From: a virus
Length of the DNA: 64,000 bases
Strand: one strand, 5' to 3'
IMG/VR virus record: IMGVR_UViG_3300045988_150172
Position 1 is the stretch's first letter; each line of letters opens with the position of its first letter. Shown here piece after piece: positions 90 to 56,608 of the stretch. The notes below the pieces were generated by a model that searched no databases, was not told the origin of the DNA, and was given only the letters and a program-made list of their open reading frames with translations. The position numbers and the translations under genes were made by a program.

Positions 90-653
90 ATGATTATGGA
101 AAACAAAGAATTGGCAGTACGAATGAAGATTCGGAGGCACAAAAATGACAGTGCAAAGTTGACGGAAATTATTGAATCAGCAACATCCACCGACTTGGAA
201 AAGAAGATTGCTTCAGAATACCTTAATAAGGTTACTGAACTAGGGTGTGATACCAGCAAATCTGATACGACAGCAGCCGACACGGTTGCTACCGAAGTTA
301 CAAGTTCAGAATTGACACCTGAGGAAGTTGATCGTCTTGGTGATGCAGAAAAAAGATTTGATAAGCGACAGGCTAATCGTAAGACACCATCTAAGGCTGA
401 TAAGAATATGCGTGAATCCAAAAGAAGCACCTCCGTTTCTACCAGTAATTTGCATGAAAGCAAAAGGGAGAATCTGGAAGAGTCTGTTGAGGTTTCCGGT
501 CTAAAGGTGGGCTCTATGGTTAGAATTGGTGATGAAGAGGGTGTTGTGGTACGTATTTATCGTAGTGCGGATGGTAAGGAGAAGTGTATGGTTAAGATAG
601 GTGACAATAAACCTATTAAGAAACGTGTTACTTCTGTGGAACTTATGAAATAA
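90..653 (+). CDS. hypothetical protein, beta-rich KOW/SH3-like C-terminus
   Basis: ORF track, follows a promoter cassette. C-terminus reads VGSMVRIGDEEGVVVRIYR..KCMVKIGD. No catalytic motif recognised. Confidence 0.6.
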   Translation: MIMENKELAVRMKIRRHKNDSAKLTEIIESATSTDLEKKIASEYLNKVTELGCDTSKSDTTAADTVATEVTSSELTPEEVDRLGDAEKRFDKRQANRKTPSKADKNMRESKRSTSVSTSNLHESKRENLEESVEVSGLKVGSMVRIGDEEGVVVRIYRSADGKEKCMVKIGDNKPIKKRVTSVELMK

Positions 654-662
654 TTAGAATTT

Positions 663-1397
663 ATGGTTGCAGATTCGGGAACCATAATCCTTATCAAGGG
701 AGTCAGTGGAAGCGGTAAATCTACAAGGGTTTACTGTTTCCTTGATTTTCTGGAAAGCATTGGTATGGAATTAAGACCATATCAGTTTGTGAACATTCTT
801 GGGCAGAAACAGGAAATAGGTGTGTATTCAGAAGAATTGAATATGCTTTTTCTTGGTAAGTTCTATGATGATAACGGAGTACGTAGATGGCAAGGTCTTG
901 ATGCTGTTACAGGACGACTGCATACAGCGGAAGGGCTTTCTTATTTCTTGAAATGGGCTGGTCAACAGAAGTTGAATGTTGTACTGGAGGGTGCTGGAAC
1001 GTCTGTGACATGGCGATTGCGCCCGATGGAGATATGTGCTGAATACGAATTCCTAAACATCCTATATTTAGTCTATACGTTTAAGTTGGAACAGTATGAT
1101 GACTATGTTAGGAGGATAGAGTATCGTTCCGGCAAGGCTCCGAAAAGCGACGCCATGTGGCGGAAGCGCAAGGGGTTTGAATCTGATTATGCTCAGACTG
1201 TGGTGGAAGCGAAGGACTTGAATATGGCTGGGGCTGATATCGTCATTAAGTATAATCTTTTTGATGCGGATCCATGGGATTTAGGTACAAGCATTATGCA
1301 GTATTTTGGTCTTGATGAACTGTGTGATGAATTTAGGCAGTTTGTGGAAAATAGTAGTTATATTGAAGAGAATTCTTTTGAAAACATTAGAAAATGA
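663..1397 (+). CDS. P-loop kinase (candidate 5-hydroxymethyl-dU DNA kinase)
   Basis: Walker A LIKGVSGSGKST near the N-terminus. The stop overlaps the next gene (ATGA). The specific function is inferred only from neighbours. Confidence 0.5.
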   Translation: MVADSGTIILIKGVSGSGKSTRVYCFLDFLESIGMELRPYQFVNILGQKQEIGVYSEELNMLFLGKFYDDNGVRRWQGLDAVTGRLHTAEGLSYFLKWAGQQKLNVVLEGAGTSVTWRLRPMEICAEYEFLNILYLVYTFKLEQYDDYVRRIEYRSGKAPKSDAMWRKRKGFESDYAQTVVEAKDLNMAGADIVIKYNLFDADPWDLGTSIMQYFGLDELCDEFRQFVENSSYIEENSFENIRK

Positions 1398-2404
1398 ATG
1401 GAATAGTTCCAAATGATAACCTGACATACTTATTCTATTGGTGCTGTGAACGAATGAACATATTCTGGAAGCGGTACAATGGGGAACAGCAGCCGTGGAC
1501 TAGTGATGAAATCTTACAGCAGTATAAGTTCACGAACGTGTATCGTGTGCTGGATAGGTCTAGTCAGTATATGCTTCGTAATGTCATCTATAATGGTAGG
1601 GAGTATTCCAGGGAAGACATGTTCTTTCGTATTCTACTGTATAAGCATTTTAATCTTCCTGAGACTTGGGATGCTCTTATGACTGAGTTTGGGGATATTA
1701 CCTATGATACTGGATGGGAGGATATTGCACGCTTTCTTGATGATAGAATTGAACATGAAGTCATTTATTCTAATGCTTTTATGTTGACAGGGTGGTTTTA
1801 TTCTCTTCCGGAGTATGCTAATATTCGTGGAGCATCAAAACATCGTGGGTATTTTGAAGTGTTTAGACGTAAAATTTTTGAGAATGGCGAAATTGAGGCC
1901 TTTCTTAATGCCACAGGCTTCGAAGAACTTTTTTATATGTTTAAGAAGTTGGAACCATTCAGTGATTTCATGGCACAGCAGTATTGTCTTGACCTGAATT
2001 ATTCTCCTTTATATGACTTCACAGAAAATGACTTTGTTGTAACTGGTCCTGGAAGTAAGAGAGGTATTCAATTTGCATTTGAGGGTGAACATAAACATGA
2101 TGGTGAAGCTGTCTTACAATGGACACAGGAACATTTTGAAGAGTTGATGGATAGGTTTTGTGAGGACACAGGTATGGTTTGGAATCCATTACCGTGGGAG
2201 CCAGTACCTACATTGACAAATATTCAAAATTGTTTTTGTGAATTATCAAAGTATGCTAAATGTATGGGTGTGCAGTTTAAGAAGAATACTAAAGGTAGAC
2301 TGAAGAATGTTTATACTACACCAAAATCAGAAATATCCTATATGTTTCCACGGAAATGGAATGTGGAAATGCCGTTAAAGGGGCAAATAGAAACTTATAA
2401 ATAG
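1394..2404 (+). CDS. candidate alpha-glutamyl/putrescinyl-thymine pyrophosphorylase-like protein
   Basis: 336 aa. The N-terminal motif PWTSDEILQQYKFTNVYRVLDRSSQY resembles, from memory, the aGPT-Pplase family. Sits between a P-loop kinase and a ThyA-family gene. Confidence 0.4.
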   Translation: MNGIVPNDNLTYLFYWCCERMNIFWKRYNGEQQPWTSDEILQQYKFTNVYRVLDRSSQYMLRNVIYNGREYSREDMFFRILLYKHFNLPETWDALMTEFGDITYDTGWEDIARFLDDRIEHEVIYSNAFMLTGWFYSLPEYANIRGASKHRGYFEVFRRKIFENGEIEAFLNATGFEELFYMFKKLEPFSDFMAQQYCLDLNYSPLYDFTENDFVVTGPGSKRGIQFAFEGEHKHDGEAVLQWTQEHFEELMDRFCEDTGMVWNPLPWEPVPTLTNIQNCFCELSKYAKCMGVQFKKNTKGRLKNVYTTPKSEISYMFPRKWNVEMPLKGQIETYK

Positions 2405-2412
2405 AAACGATT

Positions 2413-3528
2413 ATGTATTTTGAATTTGATAATCTTAGTCAGGCTCTTGTCGGGCTTTTGAGGGATCTTAAAAGTGCTGGTATTTGGACACGTAGAGGAA
2501 CCAACCCAGCAGGAAATATGTGCTTGGAATTTCCAGAAGCAGTCCTTATAAAGATAAATAATCCACTGAATAGATATGTCTTTGTTCCAGAGCGTAAATG
2601 GAATAAGACATTGGGGTGGATAGAATCCCTCTGGATTGCACGTGGAGATAATTGTTTGGAAATGCCGTCTGCCTATGTTAAGAACCTGTTGTCTTTTTCG
2701 GATGACGGTGAGACAATGCGTGCAGGGTATGGTCCGAGGATTCGTAACTATGGTGCTCATTTTGTGACAAGCTTTTACAAGAATGATGAATCATACAAGA
2801 TATATAGTCAGTATGATTCTAGGTGTATGAGTGCTGTAAAAGCAACAGACCAGTTGAGATTTATAGTGGATAAGTTTAAGCAGGATATTACCACCAGAGA
2901 AGCCGTAATTACCATTCATGATCCTATTGCTGATGACTTTAACAATGGAGAGATTCTTATAACAAAGGACACCCCATGTACGCGATCCATTCATTTTATG
3001 ATTGTTGACGGCAAGATGAACTGTTATGTGGATATGAGGAGTAATGACTTAATTTGGGGATTAAGTGCTGTTAATATCTTTAATTTTACCTTAATGCAGG
3101 AGTATGTTGCTGCAATGGTAGGTGTGCCTGTGGGGGCATACTATCATAAAGTTGATAATCTGCACATTTATGAGGGTTCACTTCCTATGCTTCAGAGTAT
3201 TATTGCGGTAAATGAGACACCACGAAGTCTTGAGATGTGGTCAGATTGGTACAGATTTTCGGAATGTAGTGATTGGCATGGTTATGAACATACATTTACT
3301 ACACTGGAGGAATTTGATATGCTGATTAGTCTGTTGTCTGTTTTTGAGCGAGGTGTGCGTGGTGCTGACGACTTACCGTATAGCAATAAGGAAGCTATCT
3401 CTGAGATAGAGTCCAAGTTTAGCGATGAACCTATGTTTAAGGACTGGGCAAAGGTTATTTATCGTAAGTGGTCAAAAGATACGTCTGTGACATTTGATAA
3501 TCCATACTTGACAAAGTTATTTATATAA
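2413..3528 (+). CDS. ThyA-family pyrimidine methylase/hydroxymethylase with C-terminal extension
   Basis: Motifs GYGPRIRNYG, TREAVITIHDP, catalytic-Cys motif DTPCTRS, MRSNDLIWGLSAVNIFNF (Asn retained, so dUMP-type) and NLHIYE. About 100 extra C-terminal residues. Confidence 0.8.
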   Translation: MYFEFDNLSQALVGLLRDLKSAGIWTRRGTNPAGNMCLEFPEAVLIKINNPLNRYVFVPERKWNKTLGWIESLWIARGDNCLEMPSAYVKNLLSFSDDGETMRAGYGPRIRNYGAHFVTSFYKNDESYKIYSQYDSRCMSAVKATDQLRFIVDKFKQDITTREAVITIHDPIADDFNNGEILITKDTPCTRSIHFMIVDGKMNCYVDMRSNDLIWGLSAVNIFNFTLMQEYVAAMVGVPVGAYYHKVDNLHIYEGSLPMLQSIIAVNETPRSLEMWSDWYRFSECSDWHGYEHTFTTLEEFDMLISLLSVFERGVRGADDLPYSNKEAISEIESKFSDEPMFKDWAKVIYRKWSKDTSVTFDNPYLTKLFI

Positions 3529-3557
3529 GTTACTTTAGAAACCATTGTGTATTGGAA

Positions 3558-3625
3558 CAGCCGTGCAACCTTGGTCTGGGAAGCCTGTGACAGGTGAGGA
3601 GAAAGTTCGAATCTTTTCACGGCTG
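3558..3625 (+). ncRNA. intergenic structured element with tRNA T-arm-like hairpin
   Basis: An 8-bp closing helix CAGCCGTG/CACGGCTG encloses CCTG-tga-CAGG and GAAAG-TTCGAAT-CTTTT (canonical T-loop sequence). Only 35 nt lie between the acceptor-like strand and the T-arm, so it is not a full tRNA. Confidence 0.3.
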
Positions 3626-3654
3626 CAATTGATTAAGTTAAAAATGATTTTGAT

Positions 3655-4200
3655 ATGAACTACAAAAAGATTGAATATCTGCTTCAGATGAAGCAGATAC
3701 AAAGACTTCCAAACGTTCCACACCACAGAAGTTATAATATTCTTGAACATGGGTTTGTCGTAGGTATGCTTTTTAGGTGGTTTGCTTCTGCTTGTGATGT
3801 ATCCTATGATATTAATGTGTGGGATAAGGTGCTGATGCACGACTATCTGGAGGCATTTACAGGCGATTTGAACTTTGTTGTTAAGAACCTTTCAGAGAAG
3901 ACTTCCAGTGCGTGGGCTACAATAGAGAAGGAGGTTTGTGATCGTGATACAGCGTTGAACCACTATTCTGATGAAGCTATAAAGTCTGCCATGACGGAAG
4001 AACAGTATACACTCTTTAAGGTGTGTGACTATCTCGATCTGTGGATTTTCTGTAAGCAGGAAGAAGCCCTTGGGAATACTACAACAGGGAATATGACCGT
4101 GATAAATAATTGTAAAAGGCTTATCTATAATCTTTGTGGGCAGGGGCAGAATAGAAAGTGGCTTCCTATTTTTGATTTTATGGCTAAATATCAAGCATAG
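3655..4200 (+). CDS. HD-domain 5'-deoxynucleotidase (YfbR-like)
   Basis: HHRSYNILEHGFVVGMLF and VLMHDYLEAFTGDL match the YfbR-type HD phosphohydrolase signature (H..HD..D). Confidence 0.7.
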   Translation: MNYKKIEYLLQMKQIQRLPNVPHHRSYNILEHGFVVGMLFRWFASACDVSYDINVWDKVLMHDYLEAFTGDLNFVVKNLSEKTSSAWATIEKEVCDRDTALNHYSDEAIKSAMTEEQYTLFKVCDYLDLWIFCKQEEALGNTTTGNMTVINNCKRLIYNLCGQGQNRKWLPIFDFMAKYQA

Positions 4201-4202
4201 TT

Positions 4203-4874
4203 ATGATGAAGATTCCAGTTGAAATATATGCCTTTGTTGGTGTAATAGGTTCAGGAAAGAGCCATCGTCTTGAACAGATGAAAAAGGAGTATAATGGCGA
4301 TGGTCAGGTTGTGATTACTGCTGATTTTTCCGATGGAATTCGTGATTTGACACGGCAGATATTTGGGTACAGTAGTGAATTTGGAGATGTAAATTCAGAA
4401 GAATATCGCGACTGGAAGAACAATGTTGTATGTGAATTTAGTGAGATGACTCCTTACGGTGTTATTGAAAATAAAATGAGGGGTAGGGAAATTCTGTGTC
4501 GTATTGGTGAGGGTGTAAAGAGTGTTGCAGGGGTGGATGTATGGGCTAGATACACAACAGCCAGAATTTATGATCAAGTATGCAAGCAGTCATTTCGTTC
4601 TGATGTCCGTGTGAATGGAGTGCGAGTATTGATTGGTTCCGTTCGGTTTAAGGATGAAGTTCAGTCTATTTTTCAACTATACAGGGATTTAATGGATAAG
4701 GCTCAATTCTTGGGTATGGAACCTCAGATTCATTTTATCTTCTGTGATTACCATTCACAGAGCTATGATGCTACAAGTCATCACATCAGTGAAGCATTTG
4801 CACAGGCAGTGATTAATTTGGGCAAGTATAAGGATGGGGATGATATTACTGAAATTGTAAATTACGTAGTATGA
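4203..4874 (+). CDS. P-loop nucleotide (dNMP) kinase-like protein
   Basis: Walker A FVGVIGSGKSH at residues 11-21. The stop overlaps the dnaE start. Confidence 0.5.
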   Translation: MMKIPVEIYAFVGVIGSGKSHRLEQMKKEYNGDGQVVITADFSDGIRDLTRQIFGYSSEFGDVNSEEYRDWKNNVVCEFSEMTPYGVIENKMRGREILCRIGEGVKSVAGVDVWARYTTARIYDQVCKQSFRSDVRVNGVRVLIGSVRFKDEVQSIFQLYRDLMDKAQFLGMEPQIHFIFCDYHSQSYDATSHHISEAFAQAVINLGKYKDGDDITEIVNYVV

Positions 4875-6352
4875 GACAGGAATTTGAACAGTATCTTCAA
4901 AGGAATTTAATGTCGTATAAGGAAGTCAGTCCTTATGTGTACGAAATAGGCGGCAAGACATTTGAACTTTATAAGCCTGACAATGACGGTGCTCTGTTTG
5001 ATGACGACTTTAGGTTCACAGGCATTCCGGCCAACCCAGACAGATATACTTCTTCGGAGACCACCATTGACACCCAGTGTGATTTCTATGCCTATAAGTT
5101 CGGTGGTGTGTGGTATATGCTTCCGAAGGATGGACGGGATGGTGTAAAGCTAAGACGGCTGAAATATATTGGAGAAGCTGTGCAGGAGATTCCTACGCCT
5201 GTTTTTATGGGTGTTCATGGTCAGTATGAAATTATGTCAGGCTCTGGAACCTATGCTGATTGGTGTGCAAAGGCAAAATTCTATGGGGTGACCACGCTTG
5301 GTATTTGTGAGAAGAATACTCTGTCGGGTGCTTTGAAGTTTCAGGTGGAATGCCAGAAGAATGGTTTGAAGCCTGTTATCGGAATGGAGTGTACCGTATA
5401 TGATACAGTTAAGGACTTTAGGTTTACTGCCAAGGTGTTTGTAAGAAACGAAGTTGGGTGGCAGAGTTTACTTACCATGTCGGAAGCTATTAACTGTGAT
5501 AATCCAGGGTATATATCTATTGACCAGTTTAAGGATGAAATTAGCCGAAATGCTGATGGGCTGGTGGTAGTTGCAGACCCCAAGACGACCGACTATGATA
5601 CATTCGCTAAAATAGGTCTAAAAATCGGTTATTATCAACTTGATCCTGTTAGGTATGTGGAAGAGTCTCGCGATGAAGTATATTTGAAGAATCTGAGGAA
5701 ATTCTATCATAGTGGTATGCTTGCACTTCCTATGGTTGATGCGTGGTATCTAGACGAAGAATATAGCTGCATTAGAGCTAGGCTTGCGAGTATAGGTGGG
5801 TCCAACTTTTATGACAGTGATGACCAGTGGTTTAAGCCGAATGATGTATTGTTCTGTCAGCTTGCTGACATGTTCCCAAGCACGGATGATGGTCTGGGGC
5901 TTGCATATCAGGACTTTTTGGATGGGCTGGAAAGGTTGATGGATATTGCTGACAGTATTGATTTTACTGTGGACACAACCAAGAGACATCTTCCACGTTA
6001 CATTATGACGGAAGAGGAAGCAGCCAAGTATGCCACCAATGAGGACATGTTCTGGGGGCTTATTGATGAGGGACTTCAGCGGCATCCTGAACTGATTGAA
6101 CGGTACGGTGAGGATGTTGTGATGGAACGTATTGACAGGGAGGTTGGCGTAATTAAGCTGGGGGATACAATTGATTACTTCCTAATTACAAGGGATATCA
6201 TTAACTGGTGTCATCGTAATGGCATTATGACAGGGATTAGTCGTGGTTCAGCCGGAGGGTGTCTTATTTCGTATCTGTTGGCTATCACTAAATTGGATCC
6301 GATAGGCTATAATCTTCTTTTTGAGAGGTTCCTGAATGAGGGTCGTGTTGGT
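4871..6352 (+). CDS. dnaE: DNA polymerase III alpha (DnaE) exon 1 / N-terminal PHP fragment
   Basis: PHP-domain motifs FMGVHGQYEIMSGSG, LGICEKNTLSG, KPVIGMEC, GISRGSAGGCLISYLL and LLFERFLNEGRV. The ORF reads on to a stop at 6506-6508, but similarity to DnaE ends near 6352. Confidence 0.85.
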
Positions 6353-6658
6353 TATTGGAAGGATGAACAGATTGTTATTATTAGTTTTGAGGATGGTCGG
6401 CAGATGGAATTTGATTCCAAGAAAAAACTTGTTGTAGAACGTAACGGCCAACACATAGAATTATGTGCGAAGGATTTTGAAGTCGGGGACAATATACTTG
6501 CATATTGATGATAATTCATGATTATATTCACGGAATGTGTTATTAAAGTATAGATAATATAATTATGTCGAAGATAACAAAAATTAAGATTGAGGACAGG
6601 AAGGGATTCGTGCGTGTTTCCCTTCCTGACGAGTAGCCCCCATCAGTAATGGTGGGGG
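6353..6658 (+). other. intervening sequence in dnaE (putative group I-like intron)
   Basis: The conserved DnaE motif is split, with RVG upstream and QSEIDVDF downstream. The downstream part is in frame but has no start codon before M6716. The candidate 5' site follows U6352 and the 3' site follows G6658. Strong hairpins lie at 6598-6627 and 6635-6660. Confidence 0.45.
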
Positions 6659-9643
6659 CAGAGTGAAATTGATGTAGATTTTCCCGGAGAAGACCGAGGA
6701 AAAGTCAAGCAGTATATGGAACAGCGTTTTGGTGAAGTTAATGTCTGTTCAGTGGGTACTTACTCCGCCTTGCAGTTAAGAGCGGCTATTAAGGACATGT
6801 CTCGTGTGTATGGGCTGGAGTTTCAGGAGGTGAATGACATGATGAAACTCTTTGGAGTGGATGATCGTAAGCCTGAAGACCTGTTTAGGATAGCCTGTGC
6901 TCAACCGCGTGTGAAGAAGTTCGTTAAGGATCACCCTGACTTGGTCAATGAGGTCATGCTGATTATGCCAGCACCAAAGGCACGTTCAGTTCACGCCTGT
7001 GCAACCATGATATTTCCAAAGGAGCATGATATGTTCCACTGGACGCCTATTCGTAAGCAGAATGGAGAATATGTGACTGAATGGGAGGGTGGTGAAATGG
7101 ACGGTGCTGGATTTTTGAAAAATGATATTCTGGGTATTAAACAGCTGGATAAGTTTCAGAATATGGTGCGTCTTGTGAAAGAGAATGAGGGTGTTGATGT
7201 GGACATTTTCAATGTACCGCTTGACGACCCAGAGGTTTATCGTTATTTTCAGAATGGCTGGACGGAAGATAATTTTCACTTTGGCTCACGTGGTTTGACA
7301 GGCTACTGTAAGGAGATGAAACCTGAAAACATAGAGGACTTGATTGCAGCTATTGCCCTGTATCGCCCTGGAGCAATGGAGAACGGTTTCCATACGGAGT
7401 ATGTTAAGCGTAAGGAGGGTGCGCCTGTAAGTTACTTTGTAGGTTCCGAAGAAATTCTCTCTAATACTTATGGGATTTTTTGTATTTCGGAAGATAGCGA
7501 TGTGCTGACTGAAAGAGGTCTTGTTAAGATTCAGGATATCATTCCTGGAAAGGACAGAGTTAAAACAGAGGATGGTTCTTTTCAGACAGTCTATTTGAAG
7601 AAGGATAATGGTGTTAGAGATGTCGTTGAAGTCCAAACAGGCTTTGGGCGGCCAGTGCTCTGCACCCCTAATCATAAGTTTCTAACAAGAGAACGTGGTT
7701 GGCAGGAAGCACAGAATTTGCGACACAATGAGGAAATTGTATGTTATTTTGAACAACCGTTAAGAAAGGATGATCTAACTGAAAGGGAATGTCTTGAACA
7801 TTGGCTGTTAGGGTATTTTCTTGCAGAGGGTAGTTGTGGTTCATCTCCATATTTTACTGTTACCAATAAGGAAGTTGCTGAAAAGGTGTCTCAGATTATA
7901 TTGAAACTCTTTCCATCTATGATGGTAGGTATTAAGGAGAAAAAGACTGTTCATAAATCAGGTAGGATTGGTATAACAACACGAGTATATGTGAGACAGA
8001 AGAATGGCAACAATGGCTATTTTAATGCGAATTATGAACCTAATCAGTTTATTGTTTGGTTGAAAAAATGGGGTGTTTGGGGTCAGAGCTGTTATACCAA
8101 GAGACTTCCTAAAGATTATTCCTTGGACATGATTGTTGGTCTATTGGAGGGTGACGGCTGTATGAAGAATTATACTTTGCGTCTTTGTAATAAGGAACTT
8201 TCTATGGATGTTTATATGGGGTTGCAGTCTTACGGGATTCAGTCTTCATATAAAATTAGTAAGAGTGGAATACCTGTTGTAAGTTGGAATGACTTGAATC
8301 AAGAGTTTAATCTTAGATTGTTTAGTCATAAAAAATTGGTAAGACCGTCGACAGTACATTCTGGTTATGGTAGGGTTCGTTCTATTACTCCTATGGGGGC
8401 ACGGAGAGTGTATGATTTGAGTGTGGATAATGTTCATAGTTTTGTTGTAAATGGCTGTGTTGTAGCGAATTGCTTCCAGGAACAAATTATGGAATTGTGT
8501 AAGTGCTTGGGTGGGCTTTCACTTGTGGAAGCTGATGATGTGCGAAAGGCTATGGTGAAGAAGAAGTATGAAGCACTTCACCAGTATCATCCACGATTTG
8601 TCGACAACTACGTGACACAGTTCGGTGTGACGAATGAATATGCTGAAAATGTGTGGGATGCTATTGACAAGGCTTCCACCTATCTGTTCAACCGTTCTCA
8701 TGCTGTTGCCTATGCTCTTACAGGTTATATCTCACAGTGGATGAAAGTTCATTATCCGATAGAATACTGGAGTGTGGCATTTAAGGAAGCAACAACAGAT
8801 GACTATCCTCGTTATATTGCTGAGATCAATAAGACAGGGGTCTGTACCGTAAAACCTGTGGACATTAATCTGTCAGGAACAGGTGTGTATATTGACTTTG
8901 CGGCGAAGACGCTTTATTGGTCAGTTACAGGTGTGAAACAGGTTGCCGACAAGGCAGCAACGCAGATACTCAAGGAACGGGACGAAAATGGTAGGTACTG
9001 GTCTCTTGATGACTTTGTAACTCGACACAAGTGGAAGGGTTCTGCTGTGAACACAAGGGTTGTGCAGAATCTAATTCTTGCAGGTGCATTTGATGCAGTA
9101 GAGAACATTACTGATGCCCCACAGAGGGTGGAACTGCTGATATCCTATTTAGCTTCCACGAAAAACAAGCTGAATGGGGAGGATCCTATTATAGCAGGGT
9201 TTGACAATCACAGGAATGATGCTTGGTGGTGGCAGCTTATGCAGAAGAAGCTTTCAGGGCTTGCATTCTTTGATTATAGTAGTATCTATGAAAAGGTGAA
9301 GCAGTTCTTTCCTGACGGTTATGAATATCACACATTTGAGGACTGTAATGATGTTGAATATCGTCCTAACAGGGGTTATGTGATTGTTGGGGGTTATGTG
9401 TCTGCAATAGACCTTAAAAAGACTAAAAAAGGAGATGTTCTGTGTCGCATTACACTGGAAAATAATTATGAGTTCCTGGATTTGGTGGTATTTCAGTCAG
9501 AATATGAACGTCTTCAGGAGGAAATTACGGCAAGCAAGGATAATATTGTGCTTTTGAATGCAACGCTCTACTATGATGCACGAAATGATAGAAATGCCTT
9601 ACGTGCTGACATGGAGACCAATATGGTGACATTTAAGTTATAG
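6659..9643 (+). CDS. dnaE: DNA polymerase III alpha (DnaE) exon 2, intein-containing
   Basis: In-frame EIDVDF, SVHACATMIFP, LKNDILGIKQLD, ALYRPGAM, NTYGIF/CFQEQIMEL, ADDVRKAMVKKK and FNRSHAVAYALTGY. The frame is open from 6650; the first ATG is at 6716. Confidence 0.85.
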   Translation, partial: QSEIDVDFPGEDRGKVKQYMEQRFGEVNVCSVGTYSALQLRAAIKDMSRVYGLEFQEVNDMMKLFGVDDRKPEDLFRIACAQPRVKKFVKDHPDLVNEVMLIMPAPKARSVHACATMIFPKEHDMFHWTPIRKQNGEYVTEWEGGEMDGAGFLKNDILGIKQLDKFQNMVRLVKENEGVDVDIFNVPLDDPEVYRYFQNGWTEDNFHFGSRGLTGYCKEMKPENIEDLIAAIALYRPGAMENGFHTEYVKRKEGAPVSYFVGSEEILSNTYGIFCISEDSDVLTERGLVKIQDIIPGKDRVKTEDGSFQTVYLKKDNGVRDVVEVQTGFGRPVLCTPNHKFLTRERGWQEAQNLRHNEEIVCYFEQPLRKDDLTERECLEHWLLGYFLAEGSCGSSPYFTVTNKEVAEKVSQIILKLFPSMMVGIKEKKTVHKSGRIGITTRVYVRQKNGNNGYFNANYEPNQFIVWLKKWGVWGQSCYTKRLPKDYSLDMIVGLLEGDGCMKNYTLRLCNKELSMDVYMGLQSYGIQSSYKISKSGIPVVSWNDLNQEFNLRLFSHKKLVRPSTVHSGYGRVRSITPMGARRVYDLSVDNVHSFVVNGCVVANCFQEQIMELCKCLGGLSLVEADDVRKAMVKKKYEALHQYHPRFVDNYVTQFGVTNEYAENVWDAIDKASTYLFNRSHAVAYALTGYISQWMKVHYPIEYWSVAFKEATTDDYPRYIAEINKTGVCTVKPVDINLSGTGVYIDFAAKTLYWSVTGVKQVADKAATQILKERDENGRYWSLDDFVTRHKWKGSAVNTRVVQNLILAGAFDAVENITDAPQRVELLISYLASTKNKLNGEDPIIAGFDNHRNDAWWWQLMQKKLSGLAFFDYSSIYEKVKQFFPDGYEYHTFEDCNDVEYRPNRGYVIVGGYVSAIDLKKTKKGDVLCRITLENNYEFLDLVVFQSEYERLQEEITASKDNIVLLNATLYYDARNDRNALRADMETNMVTFKL
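7481..8470 (+). mobile_element. intein with LAGLIDADG homing endonuclease in DnaE
   Basis: Starts CISEDSDVLTERG, block B is CTPNHKF, LAGLIDADG motifs are LLGYFLAEGS and IVGLLEGDGC, and it ends VYDLSVDNVHSFVVNGCVVAN followed by +1 Cys. Removal joins YGIF to CFQEQIM. Confidence 0.85.
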
Positions 9644-18343: not shown

Positions 18344-19414
18344 ATGAGTCTTTTTGAATTTATAGCTAAATCACGTTCAGGTGTCTATAAGGATACTTCA
18401 GAAAATCGTAGACTTCATCGTGTAGGCCAGCGTTATGGTGCAATTCAACAGATTGTTGATGAGGGGGAACTTGTTCCTGGAATGCCTAATTCGACAAAGG
18501 TGAATCTGAAGAAGTACCTTTCAGGTAAGATGAAGCACCAAGTAGATGCATATATTAATGCACTAAAGGTTACTCCTGCTTGGAATGATATTGAGAAGCT
18601 TCGTGCTGTGACTAAAGCTTATCAGGATATGTTTAATGGCAGTTTTGATTCCTTGTCTAAAAGCAATAGAGCTCTTTTTGTTGAAATTGTTAAAAGACTT
18701 CAGAATAGAATTGCTGAACTTGGTGATGCGAAGAAACCTGATAATGCTGTTGTTACGACAAATGTGGGCACAAAATCTAAATTTGAACAGGCGGCTGAAA
18801 AGGCTGGTTTTGAACGTGGTGAGCCGATGTCTATTGATTTGGCTGATGATAAACATGCCAATCCTAAATATATGAAATCAGTTGATGGAAGTTTTCGTCC
18901 ATATACTTGTAATTGTCAGACATGCGTTGTTGCCTATGAACTTAGACGTAGAGGTTATGATGTAGAAGCAATGGGTGCTGGTGTTCAAAAGGGTTTTATT
19001 AATGAATATCAACACTCACTTGCACTTGATAGCACAAATGCCTTTTTGGGAATATCATTTAAGCGTTCTACATTAAATTGGAATAATTCAATTAAGAGTA
19101 ATACACCTAAAGGTCGTCGTGAGTATGTTGCTAATCTGTTTGATGCAACAAAAGAAGAGGGTCGGTATTTCCTTTCCATGAAAAATAGAAGAAGATCTAC
19201 TGGACACATTGTTGTAGTGGAATCCACTGAGGATGGTGGAAAACTTTTAGTTGATCCTCAATCTGGGGAAAGGATTAATCTTACTGATGGTGCTGCCGTT
19301 GATAAATACTTTTCTAGAGTAGATGTTAAGCATCTCTATAATAAAGTATTTAGGGTTGATAATCTGGAATTTAATCCTGCCGTGTTTACCGTTGTAACTA
19401 AAAATTCTGAATAA
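18344..19414 (+). CDS. NRRL-leader protein with papain-fold toxin-like (Gln-deamidase-like) C-terminal domain
   Basis: N-terminus SGVYKDTSENRRLHRVGQRYG. The C-terminus has CNCQTCVVAYELRRRGYDVEA...TGHIVVVES...LVDPQSG, a Cys-His-Asp arrangement like Tox-PL1 (from memory). Confidence 0.5.
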   Translation: MSLFEFIAKSRSGVYKDTSENRRLHRVGQRYGAIQQIVDEGELVPGMPNSTKVNLKKYLSGKMKHQVDAYINALKVTPAWNDIEKLRAVTKAYQDMFNGSFDSLSKSNRALFVEIVKRLQNRIAELGDAKKPDNAVVTTNVGTKSKFEQAAEKAGFERGEPMSIDLADDKHANPKYMKSVDGSFRPYTCNCQTCVVAYELRRRGYDVEAMGAGVQKGFINEYQHSLALDSTNAFLGISFKRSTLNWNNSIKSNTPKGRREYVANLFDATKEEGRYFLSMKNRRRSTGHIVVVESTEDGGKLLVDPQSGERINLTDGAAVDKYFSRVDVKHLYNKVFRVDNLEFNPAVFTVVTKNSE

Positions 19415-19416
19415 AA

Positions 19417-19653
19417 ATGATTGCTGAAAAGGACATATTGAAGATCTGTGAAGCAGCAGGTTGGAAAGGTGGAGAACTTCTTTATGGAGGTTTTGCCGAT
19501 GGAAAGTATTACGTATCCTATGGTGGTAAGAGTGAGGATGGTGTTATTCTGCTAGTGGGAGATCCTATAATTCTCATTGTAGAAAATGGTGTGTGTAGGG
19601 TTGCTACTGATAGTGAAAGGGTTTATTTTTATGAAAATTTCGTGAAAGATTAA
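19417..19653 (+). CDS. small partner protein (immunity-like), paralog of 20688-20925
   Basis: 78 aa, immediately after the toxin-like ORF. Ends ILIVENGVCRVATDSERVYFYENFVKD. Confidence 0.55.
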   Translation: MIAEKDILKICEAAGWKGGELLYGGFADGKYYVSYGGKSEDGVILLVGDPIILIVENGVCRVATDSERVYFYENFVKD

Positions 19654-19660
19654 GGAATAA

Positions 19661-19693
19661 TCCTTGGATATTTCAGAAAAGTGATTATATTTG
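19661..19693 (+). promoter_or_regulatory. promoter cassette
   Basis: TCCTTGGATATTTCAGAAAA, then TATATTTG at 19686-19693. ATG at 19712. Confidence 0.55.
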
Positions 19694-19711
19694 CGTTATA
19701 AAATTTAGGCT

Positions 19712-20440
19712 ATGGGCTTGTTTGAATACATAATTAAAGCTAAATCTGGTGTTTATAAGGATAATCCAGAGAATAGACGACTGCATAGGGCTGGATTACA
19801 ATATGGTCAGAAAAAGCAGCAGGAAAGCGTTCCTGATGTAAACAAGGAGGATTTTGAACTTGCGGAAGCAAAGGTCGAGAAAATGCTTGCCGTGAAACAG
19901 AACTTTGATAATGTTTCACAGGCTGTGTGTATGGAGGTTGGTTGTATTGTCTCCCCTACCAACATTAAAAAGCCCATAAGGATTGCTCAGAAAATGGCTT
20001 CTGATAATTCTACTATTGATGATATTAAGGATGTTATGCGTAACACCTTTGTTGTTAATAGTGACGCTGATGTTGGCAAGGTTATAGAAGTCATATCCAA
20101 GCATTATAAAGTCGTTAGAGTAAAGCGTCAAATGCCTGACAAGTTCGCTGGTTATAGTGGCAATATTGTCAATGTGGAGCTTCCTAATGGTGAAATTGGT
20201 GAAATGCAGGTGAACACGCCACAAATGATATTTGGTAAGGAGGTTGAACGTGATGCTAGAATGATTCTGGGTGATAGTCTATGGGAACGATTAAAGGCCA
20301 ATGCAGGAAACCTTATCCCTGGACTTGGTCATAGGATGTATGAGGTGCTTCGGGATGATTCCATTGACGATGAAAGACTTGATATTGTTGAACGCAATAG
20401 TAGAATTTATTATGATAGAATTAGAAAGATTTCGCTATGA
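19712..20440 (+). CDS. NRRL-leader protein with RelA/SpoT-like nucleotidyltransferase domain
   Basis: N-terminus SGVYKDNPENRRLHRAGLQYG. The C-terminal IDDIKDVMRNTFVV...FAGYSGNIVNVELPNGEIGEMQVNT follows the D..R / GY..H..V / E.Q.RT pattern of alarmone-synthetase folds, though divergent. Confidence 0.5.
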   Translation: MGLFEYIIKAKSGVYKDNPENRRLHRAGLQYGQKKQQESVPDVNKEDFELAEAKVEKMLAVKQNFDNVSQAVCMEVGCIVSPTNIKKPIRIAQKMASDNSTIDDIKDVMRNTFVVNSDADVGKVIEVISKHYKVVRVKRQMPDKFAGYSGNIVNVELPNGEIGEMQVNTPQMIFGKEVERDARMILGDSLWERLKANAGNLIPGLGHRMYEVLRDDSIDDERLDIVERNSRIYYDRIRKISL

Positions 20441-20685
20441 GAACAGTAACTAACAAGGAACTGGGGGAGTTGCTCCGTTCCAATGAAATGGTCTATCTAT
20501 TAGACGACACCGATGAAATTGCATGGGGGTTTCTTGGTGAAGGAAAGAACCGTAGAAGAGTGGTAAGCAAGGCAAAGGGAAGAGAGCCTTTCGAGCACAA
20601 CCCAAAGCAGCAGAACTCCAACAGTATGATCCGTGCCTATATGAATAAGGATGTGATGACAAAGGAGGAATTTGAAAATTACTGA
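20437..20685 (+). CDS. hypothetical protein
   Basis: ORF track. ATGA overlap with the upstream gene. Confidence 0.5.
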   Translation: MRTVTNKELGELLRSNEMVYLLDDTDEIAWGFLGEGKNRRRVVSKAKGREPFEHNPKQQNSNSMIRAYMNKDVMTKEEFENY

Positions 20686-20687
20686 AT

Positions 20688-20925
20688 ATGTGTGAGCGAA
20701 AGAATGACATATTAAAGGTCTGTCAATCGGCAGGTTATACAGAGGGAAACCTCATCTATGGTGGTTTTTGTCAATGGGAAACATTATGTGTCCTACGGGC
20801 AGGATGATGCGGAGGAACTCCAATGTGTAGGTGCTCCTGTCATTCTGATAGTAGAGAACGGTCTATGCAGAATTGCCACTGATGATGAACGAAATTACTT
20901 TTATAGATTTCTTGTGAAAGATTAA
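20688..20925 (+). pseudogene. frameshifted paralog of the 19417-19653 small protein
   Basis: Frame 1 (20688-20807) gives MCERKNDILKVCQSAGYTEGNLIYGGF. After the T5 run at 20765-20769 the homology continues in another frame (VNGKHYVSYG...VILIVENGLCRIATDDERNYFYRFLVKD, stop 20923-20925). Confidence 0.6.
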
Positions 20926-20968
20926 GGATGGTTATTGTATATGCGTTTCTGACAGAGTTAAAGACTAT

Positions 20969-21268
20969 ATGGAAATGAAAAATGATTTCGCGAAGTCCAT
21001 TCTTGACAACCCTTATAACAGGGTTGAGGGTGGCCAGAAGATTGAATTGTTCAATGTTCTGTCCAAGTACAGGTATCAGCGTCAGAATAGGCAGTTGACC
21101 ACCTATGTTGCGTATGCCGAGGATCTTGGAATAACCAAGGAGGAAGCTGTGGCTTACCAGAATTGGATAAACGACGGCAATCCGACAGGCATTGAGTCCG
21201 ATGAGCAGTTTTATGAGATTCAGAAACAGGTATATGGCAAGGTTGTTATAAAATTGTCGTGGCTTTAA
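20969..21268 (+). CDS. hypothetical protein
   Basis: ORF track. Confidence 0.5.
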   Translation: MEMKNDFAKSILDNPYNRVEGGQKIELFNVLSKYRYQRQNRQLTTYVAYAEDLGITKEEAVAYQNWINDGNPTGIESDEQFYEIQKQVYGKVVIKLSWL

Positions 21269-21289
21269 TTGATTTTTCATGGGTTATTC

Positions 21290-21321
21290 TTTTGGAAATT
21301 CAAGAACAACGACTATATTTG
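21290..21321 (+). promoter_or_regulatory. promoter cassette
   Basis: TTTGGAAATTCAAGAA, then TATATTTG at 21314-21321. This implies the real start is the ATG at 21349, not 21259. Confidence 0.5.
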
Positions 21322-21348
21322 CGTTGTAAAATTAAAAATGATTTTGTT

Positions 21349-21798
21349 ATGAACATGGTTGTTAAATCTAAAGATCAGTTTCGTCTGGCTACTGAAATCG
21401 CAGTTCAGGCACACAATGGGCAGGTTGATAAGAATGGAGTTCCGTATATCTGTCATCCTATTGCTGTTGCTAATAAATGTTCACTTCCAATAGCCAAGTG
21501 TATTGCTATGCTTCATGATGTGCTGGAAGATACAAAAGTTACAGCAACAGATTTGATTGGTATGGGTGTTGACCCATATATTGTTGAATGTGTGGGGAAG
21601 CTGACACACAGAAAAGGCACTCCATATTTGGACTATATTCAAAGTATAATTGATACAGGAATCTATAACGTTATCAGGGTGAAGTACGCTGACTTATGTG
21701 ACAATCTTGATCCTGCGAGGGGTGGTTTGAACGAGCGGAAGATGCCTTTGTATCTTAAGGCTAAAAGAATGTTGGAGGAAGCGTTATGTCGTGTATAG
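21349..21798 (+). CDS. HD-domain (p)ppGpp hydrolase-like protein (small alarmone hydrolase type)
   Basis: AVQAHNGQVDKNGVPYICHPIAVA and MLHDVLEDT match the RelA/SpoT hydrolase HD signature. Confidence 0.7.
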   Translation: MNMVVKSKDQFRLATEIAVQAHNGQVDKNGVPYICHPIAVANKCSLPIAKCIAMLHDVLEDTKVTATDLIGMGVDPYIVECVGKLTHRKGTPYLDYIQSIIDTGIYNVIRVKYADLCDNLDPARGGLNERKMPLYLKAKRMLEEALCRV

Positions 21799-32900: not shown

Positions 32901-32919
32901 TTTTTAATATTCTTATATT

Positions 32920-33597: not shown

Positions 33598-33620
33598 TAA
33601 CTTATAAAAATTTTAATATT

Positions 33621-34301: not shown

Positions 34302-34336
34302 GTAAAGCAGTGTATGTTAAATCATAGTTGAAGGTA

Positions 34337-56514: not shown

Positions 56515-56608
56515 AGGTATATAGCATAATGGGAGTGCGCTTATGATCTTACTCAGATTTTTAGGGTAATATTAGAAAGAGGTGGTGGTTCGAATCCACC
56601 TATACCAC
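56515..56608 (+). ncRNA. tRNA-like element (good acceptor, D-arm and T-arm; aberrant middle)
   Basis: AGGTATA/TATACCA acceptor (6 bp plus an A-A mismatch), U8, D-arm GCAT-AATGGGA-GTGC, T-arm GGTGG-TTCGAAT-CCACC. There are 44 nt between position 26 and the T-arm, and no canonical anticodon stem-loop. Confidence 0.35.

What the first reader, a model, noticed from the sequence alone, without database searches (positions are those of the whole stretch)
663..4874. Candidate thymidine hypermodification (5-hmdU pathway) cluster
Five consecutive genes encode the following:
- A P-loop kinase.
- A 336-aa protein with the PWTSDEIL..FTNVYRVLDRSSQ motif that I associate with aGPT-pyrophosphorylases.
- A ThyA-family enzyme with catalytic Cys and the dUMP-type Asn, plus a ~100-aa extension.
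- A YfbR-type HD deoxynucleotidase.
- A second P-loop (dNMP-kinase-like) protein.

In the published scheme for phages SP10, PhiW-14, ViI and M6, a dUMP hydroxymethylase, a 5-hmdU DNA kinase and an aGPT-Pplase install bulky groups on thymine after replication. Nucleotidases and kinases reshape the dNTP pool. This gene set fits that scheme and would imply non-canonical T in a Bacteroidota phage. The cluster may extend upstream of the window.
Basis: partly seen in the sequence, partly recalled or inferred. Interest (0 to 1): 0.7.

Follow-up and report, generated by a model that had tools for sequence, protein, structure and literature searches.

The report
Truncated thymine-modification gene cluster in gut phage
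A roughly 103-kb phage, probably infecting gut Bacteroidota, carries genes to replace thymine with 5-hydroxymethyluracil and then phosphorylate it in DNA, but it lacks the only enzyme known to attach bulky groups, so its final DNA base cannot be predicted.

Summary
The five genes are real and are conserved in order in about 50 related viral contigs.

- **Supported:** The ThyA homologue carries the dUMP-hydroxymethylase signature: Asp at the ThyA L143 position, Asn at N177 and Asp at D169. It groups with the SPO1, SP10, M6 and PaMx11 hydroxymethylases. The 244-aa P-loop protein belongs to Pfam HMUD2 and is 29% identical to ViI gp243, a demonstrated 5-hmdU DNA kinase. A YfbR-type HD nucleotidase and a dNMP-kinase-like protein follow. 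A dUTPase lies just upstream of the window.
- **Not supported as stated:** The 336-aa protein is clade 1 of the aGPT-Pplase family (Pfam PF18723, now "5-hmdU DNA kinase, helical domain"). No transferase activity has been shown for this clade. The demonstrated amino-acid:DNA transferase (clade 2, PF18724 ADDT) is absent from about 98.6% of the genome. Related phages carry it at this same locus.

The locus occurs in three interchangeable forms: kinase only (this phage), kinase plus ADDT, or cytidylyltransferase-like plus glycosyltransferase. The clade-1 protein, hydroxymethylase and HD protein are constant in all three.

**Verdict:** this is a genuine 5-hmdU pathway that stops at, or just after, 5-phosphomethyl-dU. 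It is a new variant of a known kind.

The parts
90..653 (+). 187-aa ORF of unknown function directly upstream of the kinase. Whether it belongs to the pathway is uncertain.
   Evidence: No Pfam, PHROG or NCBIfam hit. It holds the same position in close relatives but evolves fast, at 61-94% identity. tblastn found no homologue in the variant B and C loci L032-L034.
663..1397 (+). P-loop kinase of the HMUD2 family, a predicted 5-hmdU DNA kinase that would convert 5-hmdU in DNA to 5-phosphomethyl-dU.
   Evidence: PF18747 E=3.8e-22, score 79 bits against a cut-off of 25. It is 29% identical over 180 aa to ViI gp243, E=4e-18. gp243 was shown to phosphorylate 5-hmdU in DNA (PMC8989533, section 15). 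Walker A motif GVSGSGKST is present. It is the best-conserved gene of the cluster among relatives, at 90-99.6%.
1394..2404 (+). Clade-1 aGPT-Pplase, now named HMUDK_hel. It has a helical, HhH-glycosylase-like fold. Its biochemical role is unproven.
   Evidence: PF18723 E=5e-72. It aligns with the C-terminal half of SP10 gp186, which is a kinase-hel fusion. AF2 model pLDDT is 93. Top BFVD matches are SP10 gp186, PhiW-14 and proteins named Pplase1; weaker matches are ADDT proteins, TM about 0.42-0.47. Invariant residues include C282-E283. In a non-significant hhalign alignment, C282 falls on the catalytic Cys of clade 2.
2413..3528 (+). Thymidylate-synthase-family enzyme, predicted dUMP 5-hydroxymethylase.
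   Evidence: The catalytic Cys is present. Asp replaces ThyA L143, Asn is kept at N177 and Asp is kept at D169 (criteria from PMC13326640). An FSDDG motif replaces WDEW, as in the SPO1-, SP10-, M6- and PaMx11-type enzymes. Best homologues are phi18 gp135 (Okubovirus, E=6e-36) and SP10 gp188 (E=1e-33). The best solved structure is the hydroxymethylase MilA, E=1.5e-21, against 4e-10 or weaker for thymidylate synthases.
3655..4200 (+). HD-domain 5'-deoxynucleotidase of the YfbR type, probably removing dTMP or other competing dNMPs.
   Evidence: PF12917 E=4e-16. PDB YfbR 2paq, E=2e-5, with the HD motif aligned. Homologous to the 5'-deoxynucleotidase at the same position in the M6-like phage CN2 (gp17, E=1.5e-11).
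4203..4874 (+). Second P-loop protein, dNMP-kinase-like. Its inferred role is hmdUMP to hmdUDP.
   Evidence: phrog_139 (deoxynucleoside monophosphate kinase), E=2.2e-11. Only a weak AAA_22 hit in Pfam and no PDB sequence match. P-loop GVIGSGKS is present. Conserved at this position in variants A and B.
4871..9643 (+). DnaE-type replicative polymerase, interrupted. This is context: it would have to accept hmdUTP.
   Evidence: PHP and DNA_pol3_alpha domains. Intein domains were reported for the downstream part. The gene follows the cluster directly in all relatives.

Best explanation
This is a minimal thymidine-modification pathway that lacks a transferase.

**Before replication (inferred from homology).** A dUTPase just upstream of the window supplies dUMP. 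The ThyA homologue hydroxymethylates dUMP to 5-hmdUMP. The dNMP-kinase-like protein and a host NDP kinase raise it to 5-hmdUTP. The HD nucleotidase removes competing dTMP. The adjacent DnaE polymerase incorporates 5-hmdU in place of T.

**After replication (inferred from homology to ViI gp243).** The HMUD2 kinase phosphorylates the hydroxymethyl group in DNA, giving 5-phosphomethyl-dU (5-PmdU). The kinase gene overlaps the gene for the clade-1 'Pplase'/HMUDK_hel protein, so the two are probably translationally coupled, and the clade-1 protein would act with the kinase on the same base.

**The clade-1 protein.** I think it most likely uses its invariant Cys282/Glu283 on flipped-out 5-hmdU or 5-PmdU, by analogy with its clade-2 paralogues. 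It may instead only present the base to the modifying enzyme.

**End product.** The genome has no clade-2 amino-acid:DNA transferase and no tailoring enzymes, so the mature base is not an M6/ViI/PhiW-14-type amino-acid or polyamine adduct. My best estimate is a non-canonical thymine derivative at a subset of T positions: either 5-PmdU itself or a product made by the clade-1 protein.
For: - **Hydroxymethylase:** signature residues and clade membership.
- **Kinase:** family assignment and homology to an assayed kinase.
- **Gene order:** kinase, hel, hydroxymethylase, HD is the same as in the M6-like phage CN2 (gp13-14-(15)-16-17, with an extra gene gp15) and the PaMx11-like phage ZC01 (gp12-13-14-15).
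- **Fusion precedent:** SP10 fuses kinase and hel in the same order.
- **Absence of ADDT and tailoring enzymes:**. The custom HMM gave zero hits at E<=10 in this genome while recovering 8 of the related loci that phmmer had placed in variant C.
- **Selection:** the module is conserved in about 50 related contigs, and the kinase is its most conserved gene.
- **Clade-1 catalytic potential:** invariant C282-E283 plus about 25 other invariant residues, and shared fold with ADDT proteins in BFVD.
- **Protective value of 5-PmdU:** Lee 2021 reports that 5-PmdU alone blocks NcoI.
- **Clade-1-only precedent:** SP10 makes glutamyl-thymine with no clade 2 detected (Lee 2018 Table 3).
Against: - No enzyme activity was measured, and all assignments rest on 25-35% identity.
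- Clade 1 has no demonstrated activity. What I infer to be the M6 clade-1 protein (gp55) was dispensable in reconstitution, and the SP10 kinase domain works without its clade-1 domain.
- Variant B relatives keep hel but have no kinase. In some, hel is fused to a glycosyltransferase. So hel cannot strictly need 5-PmdU.
- Bacterial operons pair hel with a TS homologue and have no kinase.
- The profile alignment that places C282 on the clade-2 catalytic Cys is not significant (E=0.09-0.5).
- Four large ORFs have no family hit and could hide an unrelated transferase.
- About 1.4 kb of the genome was not inspected.
- A natural variant carries a 29-bp deletion in hel (L005).
Confidence: 0.6

Rival explanations
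1. Thymine regeneration. The phage replicates with 5-hmdU. The kinase then phosphorylates it and the clade-1 protein reduces 5-PmdU to ordinary thymine, so packaged DNA is canonical or nearly so. The pathway would serve to separate phage and host nucleotide pools or to mark DNA during infection, not to protect virion DNA.
For: In SP10, PhiW-14, M6 and ViI, all 5-hmdU that is not hypermodified is converted to thymine before packaging, and no enzyme has been assigned to that step (Lee 2021 introduction). All four phages encode clade 1 (Lee 2018 Table 3). SPO1-type phages, which keep 5-hmdU, appear to lack it: 6 Bacillus records matched hel against 69 that matched the TS homologue. A clade-2 enzyme plus borohydride yields thymidine from 5-PmdU, so the chemistry is feasible. 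The invariant Cys and a nearby second Cys (NCFCE) fit thiol chemistry.
Against: This is pure inference; no hydride donor or cofactor-binding domain is visible. Variant B loci and the bacterial operons have hel without any kinase. A glycosyltransferase-hel fusion is hard to reconcile with a reductase that competes for the same base. Strong conservation of a pathway that ends in plain T needs a separate selective explanation.
Confidence: 0.2
2. A bulky group (amino acid or polyamine) is installed on thymine, either by the clade-1 protein acting as the transferase as presumed for SP10, or by an unrecognised phage or host transferase.
For: SP10 contains alpha-glutamylthymine, yet only a kinase-clade-1 fusion and no clade 2 were detected there. 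Clade 1 shares the ADDT fold and a conserved Cys. Several large ORFs remain unannotated.
Against: No transferase activity has been reported for clade 1, although Lee 2021 purified and assayed full-length SP10 gp186. Related phages that need a transferase carry a clade-2 ADDT right next to hel as well as hel itself, which suggests that hel does not substitute for it. No tailoring enzymes are present.
Confidence: 0.12
3. Ordinary nucleotide metabolism. The ThyA homologue is a plain thymidylate synthase, the two P-loop proteins are nucleotide kinases, and the DNA is canonical throughout.
For: Records and family libraries commonly annotate these homologues as 'thymidylate synthase' and 'guanylate kinase'.
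Against: The L143 position is Asp, as in hydroxymethylases, and the WDEW motif is replaced. NCBIfam thymidylate synthase models score far below their cut-offs. The nearest homologues all come from 5-hmdU or hypermodifying phage lineages. The kinase's closest characterised relative acts on DNA. PF18723 is restricted to such systems.
Confidence: 0.05

Closest known systems
Bacillus phage SP10 set: gp186 (HMUD1 kinase fused to HMUDK_hel/clade 1), gp188 (dUMP hydroxymethylase), gp218 (kinase 2); alpha-glutamylthymine DNA
   Same: Kinase followed by the clade-1 domain in the same order, with the hydroxymethylase next to it. No clade-2 transferase was detected (Lee 2018 Table 3). The portal proteins are also related, at 34% identity.
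   Different: Here the kinase and hel are two ORFs overlapping by 4 nt, not a fusion. The adjacent kinase is HMUD2-type rather than HMUD1-type. There is no homologue of SP10 gp185. The host phylum differs, and the final base is unknown.
M6-like and PaMx11-like Pseudomonas/Bordetella phage clusters (5-NedU and 5-AcNmdU pathways)
   Same: The right-hand half of those clusters is collinear with this one: kinase, clade-1 protein, hydroxymethylase, HD 5'-deoxynucleotidase. Pairwise homology holds for hel, TS and HD.
   Different: The left-hand half is missing: no clade-2 ADDT, and no PLP plus radical-SAM or FAD plus acetyltransferase enzymes. The kinase family differs (HMUD2 here; the M6/PaMx11 kinase gave no BLASTP hit to the window kinase and only E=8e-6 to ViI gp243). 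The replicative polymerase is DnaE rather than PolA.
Salmonella phage ViI (5-NeOmdU): gp243 kinase 2, gp160 clade 1, gp247 clade 2, gp226 PLP enzyme
   Same: The kinase is of the same family as gp243. Homologues of the 336-aa protein in ViI-like phages are annotated aGPT-Pplase1.
   Different: In ViI the genes are scattered, and a clade-2 serine transferase and a decarboxylase are present. Both are absent here. Variant C relatives of this phage (L087, L092, L033) do carry a ViI-like clade-2 gene and a second ORF (u363) that matches a PLP-enzyme reference at E about 1e-86.
Bacillus phage SPO1-type 5-hmdU phages
   Same: They share the pre-replicative logic: dUMP hydroxymethylase (34.5% identity to phi18 gp135), removal of dTMP/dTTP, and a dNMP kinase.
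   Different: SPO1-type phages stop at 5-hmdU, and I saw no sign of a DNA kinase or clade-1 protein in them (only 6 Bacillus records matched hel). This phage has both.

Membership tests
Post-replicative thymidine hypermodification pathway of the M6/ViI/PhiW-14/PaMx11 type | dUMP hydroxymethylase supplying 5-hmdU | tested here: met
   Residue signature (Asp at L143, Asn at N177, Asp at D169, catalytic Cys) and clustering with the SPO1, SP10, M6 and PaMx11 enzymes. Activity was not assayed.
Post-replicative thymidine hypermodification pathway of the M6/ViI/PhiW-14/PaMx11 type | 5-hmdU DNA kinase | tested here: met
   PF18747, 79 bits against a cut-off of 25. E=4e-18 to ViI gp243, which has been assayed. 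Sequence evidence only.
Post-replicative thymidine hypermodification pathway of the M6/ViI/PhiW-14/PaMx11 type | Clade-2 aGPT-Pplase (amino acid:DNA transferase, PF18724 ADDT) | tested here: not met
   No Pfam hit in any ORF scanned across the window and the rest of the genome. tblastn with ViI gp247 and Montesquieu gp42 gave nothing below E=2.8. A custom 9-sequence HMM gave no hit at E<=10, while its positive control recovered 8 relatives. About 1.4 kb of the genome was not seen.
Post-replicative thymidine hypermodification pathway of the M6/ViI/PhiW-14/PaMx11 type | Tailoring enzymes (PLP decarboxylase, radical-SAM isomerase, FAD lyase, acetyltransferase) | tested here: not met
   None found by Pfam, tblastn or phmmer.
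Post-replicative thymidine hypermodification pathway of the M6/ViI/PhiW-14/PaMx11 type | Hypermodified thymidine in virion DNA | not testable with these tools
   Needs LC-MS/MS of virion nucleosides.
PF18723 HMUDK_hel (= aGPT-Pplase clade 1) | Full-length match to the family profile and predicted-structure similarity to known members | tested here: met
   E=5e-72 over profile positions 5-275 of 281. Foldseek TM 0.75 to SP10 gp186 and 0.65 to the PhiW-14 member.
PF18723 HMUDK_hel (= aGPT-Pplase clade 1) | Family-invariant residues, including FTNVYRxLDR and the Cys-Glu pair | tested here: met
   27 invariant columns in 36 sequences are all present in the window protein, including R51, D54, C282 and E283.
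PF18723 HMUDK_hel (= aGPT-Pplase clade 1) | Group-transfer (pyrophosphorylase/transferase) activity implied by the old name | not testable with these tools
   I found no published activity for any clade-1 member.
SP10-type kinase plus clade-1-only system | Kinase and clade-1 domain joined or adjacent in the order N to C, with clade 2 absent | tested here: met
   Adjacent with a 4-nt overlap. The SP10 fusion architecture is shown. Clade 2 is absent here and was not detected in SP10.
SP10-type kinase plus clade-1-only system | HMUD1-type kinase and a gp185-like neighbour | tested here: not met
   The window kinase is HMUD2-type. BLASTP to the N-terminal half of gp186 gave E=0.011, P-loop region only. 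No gp185 homologue.
YfbR-like HD 5'-deoxynucleotidase | Family profile above the curated cut-off, with the HD metal-binding motif | tested here: met
   59.6 bits against a cut-off of 25.9. The HD of 'LMHDYLEAFTGDL' aligns with the YfbR HD.
T4 gp1-like dNMP kinase | Significant similarity to characterised dNMP kinases | tested here: inconclusive
   PHROG 139, E=2e-11, but no Pfam, NCBIfam or PDB match.

The most novel reading that the evidence does not exclude
The mature virion DNA of this abundant group of phages, probably from gut Bacteroidota, carries 5-phosphomethyl-deoxyuridine itself, a phosphate-bearing and negatively charged thymine so far known only as a biosynthetic intermediate, or a new base made by the clade-1 protein alone. 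Either outcome would show that clade-1 'Pplase'/HMUDK_hel proteins have a function of their own. The three natural locus variants (kinase only, kinase plus ADDT, glycosyltransferase) would form a ready-made comparative system for working out that function.
Probability: 0.3. Interest if true: 0.8.

Novelty: new variant of a known kind. Interest (0 to 1): 0.6.

Why it matters
Thymidine hypermodification is understood as kinase, then clade-2 transferase, then tailoring. The clade-1 paralogue is present in every characterised system but has no assigned role, and the enzyme that turns leftover 5-hmdU into thymine is also unknown.

This phage lineage keeps the kinase and the clade-1 protein under clear purifying selection while lacking the transferase. 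Its relatives swap in either a transferase or a glycosyltransferase at the same locus, and in some the glycosyltransferase is fused to the clade-1 domain. That is a natural dissection of the pathway.

It makes the function of clade 1 directly testable with three or four recombinant proteins and 5-hmdU DNA. It also suggests that phages probably infecting gut Bacteroidota carry thymine modifications that would affect restriction, defence-system recognition, sequencing-library bias and nanopore base-calling in gut viromes.

Tried and rejected
- **blastn against phages:** the cluster found nothing in 50,697 phage records, so there is no close cultured relative.
- **PDB sequence searches:** the kinase, the clade-1 protein and the second P-loop protein gave only noise.
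- **Foldseek against PDB:** the clade-1 model gave no significant match, only weak HhH glycosylases at E>=0.8. It did not retrieve the clade-2 (gp46) structure described in PMC11472151.
- **Clade 1 versus clade 2 profiles:** the comparison was not significant (E=0.54 and 0.09). The coincidence of the Cys columns is therefore suggestive, not proof.
- **Iyer et al. 2013:** the paper that named the families was not available.
- **Literature:** searches for a clade-1 function or a 5-PmdU reductase found nothing.
- **Plain thymidylate synthase:** rejected on residue signature and clade membership.
- **Hidden transferase:** I considered one in the structural half of the genome, but Pfam found only tail, baseplate, NUDIX and BACON families there.
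- **Rfam on the DnaE interruption:** no intron family found.

Full report
**Observation.** The five + strand ORFs exist exactly as described: 663-1397, 1394-2404, 2413-3528, 3655-4200 and 4203-4874. The first two overlap by ATGA. Profile searches gave:

| ORF | Best family hits |
|---|---|
| 244 aa | PF18747 HMUD2 '5-hmdU DNA kinase 2', E=3.8e-22 |
| 336 aa | PF18723 HMUDK_hel '5-hmdU DNA kinase, helical domain', E=5e-72 |
| 371 aa | PF00303 thymidylate synthase, E=4.9e-17; phrog_5131, E=7e-63 |
| 181 aa | PF12917 YfbR-like, E=4e-16 |
| 223 aa | phrog_139 dNMP kinase, E=2e-11 |

The window belongs to a circularly permuted genome of about 103 kb, represented by ENA contig ERZ19693190 k109_149639. 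Close relatives of 97-107 kb are in IMG/VR.

**Host and phage type.** The genome carries three tandem BACON-domain proteins, DUF4494 and an ECF-type sigma factor. Its portal protein is closest to a human-faecal phage contig (50% identity), then to Chryseobacterium phage MA9V-3 and the Bacteroides thetaiotaomicron DAC phages (about 35%) and to Bacillus phage SP10 (34%). A Bacteroidota host, probably in the gut, is therefore likely. No cultured phage shares the cluster at the DNA level.

**The ThyA homologue is a dUMP hydroxymethylase by every sequence criterion I could apply.**
- Its best solved relative is the hydroxymethylase MilA (E=1.5e-21). Genuine thymidylate synthases score E=4e-10 or weaker. 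NCBIfam thymidylate-synthase models score far below their cut-offs.
- Its best phage homologues come from lineages known to make 5-hmdU: phi18 gp135 of the SPO1 genus Okubovirus (E=6e-36), SP10 gp188 (annotated dUMP hydroxymethylase, E=1e-33), and PaMx11-like, M6-like and ViI-like enzymes.
- A recent paper (PMC13326640) gives diagnostic positions relative to E. coli ThyA. N177 versus Asp sets dUMP versus dCMP. L143 excludes water in methylases and is acidic in hydroxymethylases. D169N marks 5-hydroxy-dCMP synthases.
- My alignment used an E. coli ThyA sequence recalled from memory. In it the window protein has Cys at 146, Asp at 143 (KDTPC), Asn at 177 and Asp at 169.
- It also shares an [FY]SDDG motif in place of WDEW with all the phage dUMP hydroxymethylases.
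- The roughly 100-aa C-terminal extension is a feature of this clade (SP10 382 aa, phi18 383 aa).

**The 244-aa protein is a homologue of a demonstrated DNA-base kinase.** It is 29% identical over 180 residues to ViI gp243 (E=4e-18). Lee et al. 2021 (PMC8989533, section 15) showed that gp243, gp67, M6 gp54, PhiW-14 gp37 and SP10 gp186 each convert 5-hmdU in DNA to 5-phosphomethyl-dU (5-PmdU). Lee et al. 2018 listed gp243 and SP10 gp218 as 'Kinase2'.

**The 336-aa protein is clade 1, not the proven transferase.**
- GenBank records call its phage homologues 'aGPT-Pplase clade 1'. Current Pfam names the same family HMUDK_hel.
- It aligns with the C-terminal half of SP10 gp186, whose N-terminal half is the HMUD1 kinase. 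The window therefore encodes, as two overlapping and probably translationally coupled ORFs, the same kinase-then-hel arrangement that SP10 has as a fusion.
- In Lee 2021, group transfer to 5-PmdU was assigned to clade 2 (M6 gp51, ViI gp247, PaMx11 gp46, PhiW-14 gp109). M6 gp55, which I take to be the clade-1 paralogue from Lee 2018 Table 3, was dispensable. A C-terminal deletion of SP10 gp186 retained kinase activity.
- I found no paper that assigns an activity to clade 1.
- The family still looks enzymatic. In 36 sequences down to 35% identity, 27 columns are invariant, including R51, D54, Q58, R79, K149, Q196, D200, N279, C282, E283 and K286.
- The AF2 model is confident (pLDDT 93, pTM 0.90). 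It matches predicted structures of SP10 gp186 and of PhiW-14 and phiRSL1 members (TM 0.65-0.75). It matches 'amino acid:DNA transferase' proteins more weakly (TM about 0.42-0.47, Foldseek probability 0.92-1.0).
- Against solved structures only weak HhH glycosylase matches appear.
- Profile-profile alignment with clade 2 is not significant. In the extended alignment, C282 falls on the catalytic Cys of PaMx11 gp46 (C247, PMC11472151), and Q278/N279 fall on its metal ligands E243/T244. I treat this as a lead only.

**The transferase is absent.**
- Pfam scans of essentially all window ORFs of 130 aa or more found no PF18724 ADDT, aGPT-Pplase3, PLP, radical-SAM, FAD or acetyltransferase candidates.
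- I reconstructed the rest of the genome from L004, L006 and a 95-100% identical IMG/VR contig (L013, L021). All 32 additional ORFs gave only replication, structural, NUDIX, BACON and dUTPase families.
- tblastn with ViI gp247, Montesquieu gp42, ViI gp226 and SP10 gp185 found nothing.
- The Pfam ADDT model missed ViI-like clade-2 proteins in relatives. I therefore built an HMM from nine clade-2 sequences. It recovered 8 loci that phmmer had already placed in variant C, at E<1e-118, and gave no hit at E<=10 in this genome.
- About 1.4 kb was not inspected; it falls within what appears to be one long structural ORF. Four large ORFs have no family assignment. An unrelated transferase therefore cannot be excluded.

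**Comparative genomics.** The order kinase, hel, hydroxymethylase, HD is shared with the M6-like Bordetella phage CN2 (gp13-14-(15)-16-17) and the PaMx11-like phage ZC01 (gp12-13-14-15). In those phages the clade-2 transferase and tailoring enzymes sit immediately to the left.

Among 80 IMG/VR loci that encode a hel homologue, the segment between the dUTPase and hel takes three forms:

| Variant | Content between dUTPase and hel | Loci |
|---|---|---|
| A | HMUD2 kinase alone (this phage) | about 50 |
| B | Cytidylyltransferase-like protein plus a GT1 glycosyltransferase, no kinase | L068-71, L077, L089, L097, and L032 from an NCBI assembly |
| C | HMUD2 kinase plus clade-2 ADDT | L074, L079, L080, L084-87, L092, L033 |

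- In L077 and L089 (variant B), the glycosyltransferase and hel form one 846-aa fusion.
- In variant C, some loci add an ORF (u363) that matches a PLP-enzyme reference at E about 1e-86 but has no Pfam hit. In L086 the ADDT is fused to a GNAT acetyltransferase.
- Hel, the hydroxymethylase and the HD protein are constant across all three variants.
- In variant A relatives the kinase is the best-conserved gene of the cluster (90-99.6%).
- Hel paired with a TS homologue also occurs without any kinase in large bacterial contigs, next to DUF1599, TIR and Nmad2 genes. A bacterial system containing TS, 5-hmdU-kinase, dNMP-kinase and NMAD domains was recently validated as an anti-phage defence (PMC13092281).

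**Mechanism.**
- *Shown by sequence:* all components for making 5-hmdUTP and for phosphorylating 5-hmdU in DNA are present and conserved.
- *Inferred:* dUTPase gives dUMP. The hydroxymethylase gives 5-hmdUMP. The dNMP-kinase-like protein and a host NDK give 5-hmdUTP. The HD nucleotidase removes dTMP. DnaE incorporates 5-hmdU. HMUD2 converts it to 5-PmdU.
- *Unresolved:* what hel does. Its fusion to a kinase in SP10 and to a glycosyltransferase in L077 points to a module that works on the same flipped-out 5-hydroxymethyl base as its partner. Its invariant Cys-Glu pair and ADDT-like fold point to covalent catalysis at C6. The existence of loci with hel and no kinase argues that it does not strictly need 5-PmdU.

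My estimates for the outcome in virion DNA:
- Non-canonical thymine, either 5-PmdU or a clade-1 product: about 0.6.
- Thymine regenerated from 5-PmdU, leaving canonical DNA: about 0.2.
- Ordinary thymidylate metabolism: about 0.05.

**Comparison with known systems and novelty.** The pathway works like the front end of the SP10, M6, ViI and PhiW-14 pathways. It fails the membership test for the complete pathway on the clade-2 transferase and the tailoring enzymes. SP10 is the closest precedent, having kinase plus clade 1 with no clade 2 detected. The differences from SP10 are the kinase family, the lack of fusion and the lack of a gp185 homologue. I rate it a new variant of a known kind. Its value lies in the natural three-way locus variation, which isolates the unexplained clade-1 protein, and in extending 5-hmdU-based DNA chemistry to abundant phages that probably infect gut Bacteroidota.

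Noticed in passing
window 4871-9643 (junction about 6455-6690): The DnaE polymerase gene is interrupted. After ...FERFLNEGR the frame runs on for about 50 codons to stop codons. The conserved SEIDVDF catalytic motif then resumes in the same frame about 230 nt later, upstream of the annotated ATG at 6716. The insert has strong local hairpins but no Rfam intron match. The downstream part also carries an intein. A relative (L033) has an uninterrupted 1131-aa DnaE.
   Followed up: partly
L004:2430-5810 (outside the window, same genome): The large terminase gene carries an intein with a LAGLIDADG homing endonuclease (precomputed Pfam: Hom_end_hint, Intein_splicing, LAGLIDADG_3, Terminase_6C). The genome therefore carries at least two inteins.
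   Followed up: no
L005:1865-2846, corresponding to window 1394-2404: A second metagenomic contig is 100% identical across the other cluster proteins I compared. Its hel-to-TS spacing is 29 bp shorter than in the window, which implies a deletion that splits the clade-1 gene into 221-aa and 76-aa ORFs. This is either a natural loss-of-function variant or an assembly error.
   Followed up: partly
L077:8435-10972 and L089 (IMG/VR relatives): A single 846-aa ORF fuses a GT1 glycosyltransferase (residues 220-419) to a complete HMUDK_hel domain (residues 527-807), in phages that have no 5-hmdU kinase. A cytidylyltransferase-like gene sits upstream. This suggests glycosylated 5-hmdU (a base-J-like modification) in relatives of this phage.
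   Followed up: partly
L029, L030, L031 (bacterial contigs of 167-493 kb): A conserved cellular operon reads HMUDK_hel, TS homologue, DUF1599, TIR (ThsB-like), Nmad2, and in L029 a second TIR, with no kinase. It resembles the TS / 5hmdU-kinase / NMAD anti-phage systems reported by the DefensePredictor study.
   Followed up: partly
whole window: GC skew on the + (coding) strand is very strong and sustained, at 0.2-0.3 over most of the 64 kb (G 24.8%, C 17.3%). It falls to about zero or below only around 40-42, 46-48 and 50-56 kb; the - strand genes lie at about 52.7-56 kb.
   Followed up: no
window 32229-34301: Three tandem paralogous genes of about 225 aa, each with an N-terminal BACON domain. 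A ferritin-like gene (34328-34780) and an ECF-type sigma factor (35245-35868) follow.
   Followed up: no
window 18344-21798: A group of possible host-manipulation genes: a papain-fold glutamine deamidase toxin domain (18344-19414), a RelA/SpoT-like nucleotidyltransferase (19712-20440) and an HD_4 domain protein (21259-21798). A GroEL-type chaperonin lies at 27922-29550.
   Followed up: no
window 56515-56608: ARAGORN calls one tRNA-like gene with a four-base anticodon (ctta) and no assigned amino acid. It lies in the roughly 1-kb gap between the divergent gene blocks.
   Followed up: no
L026 (Maribacter phage Molly_5, 72228-74721): The closest cultured-phage homologue of the hydroxymethylase (E=2e-39, with Asn at the N177 position) sits directly after a beta-glucosyltransferase, a UDP-glucose dehydrogenase and an epimerase. 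This suggests glycosylated 5-hmdU in a cultured marine Bacteroidota phage.
   Followed up: no
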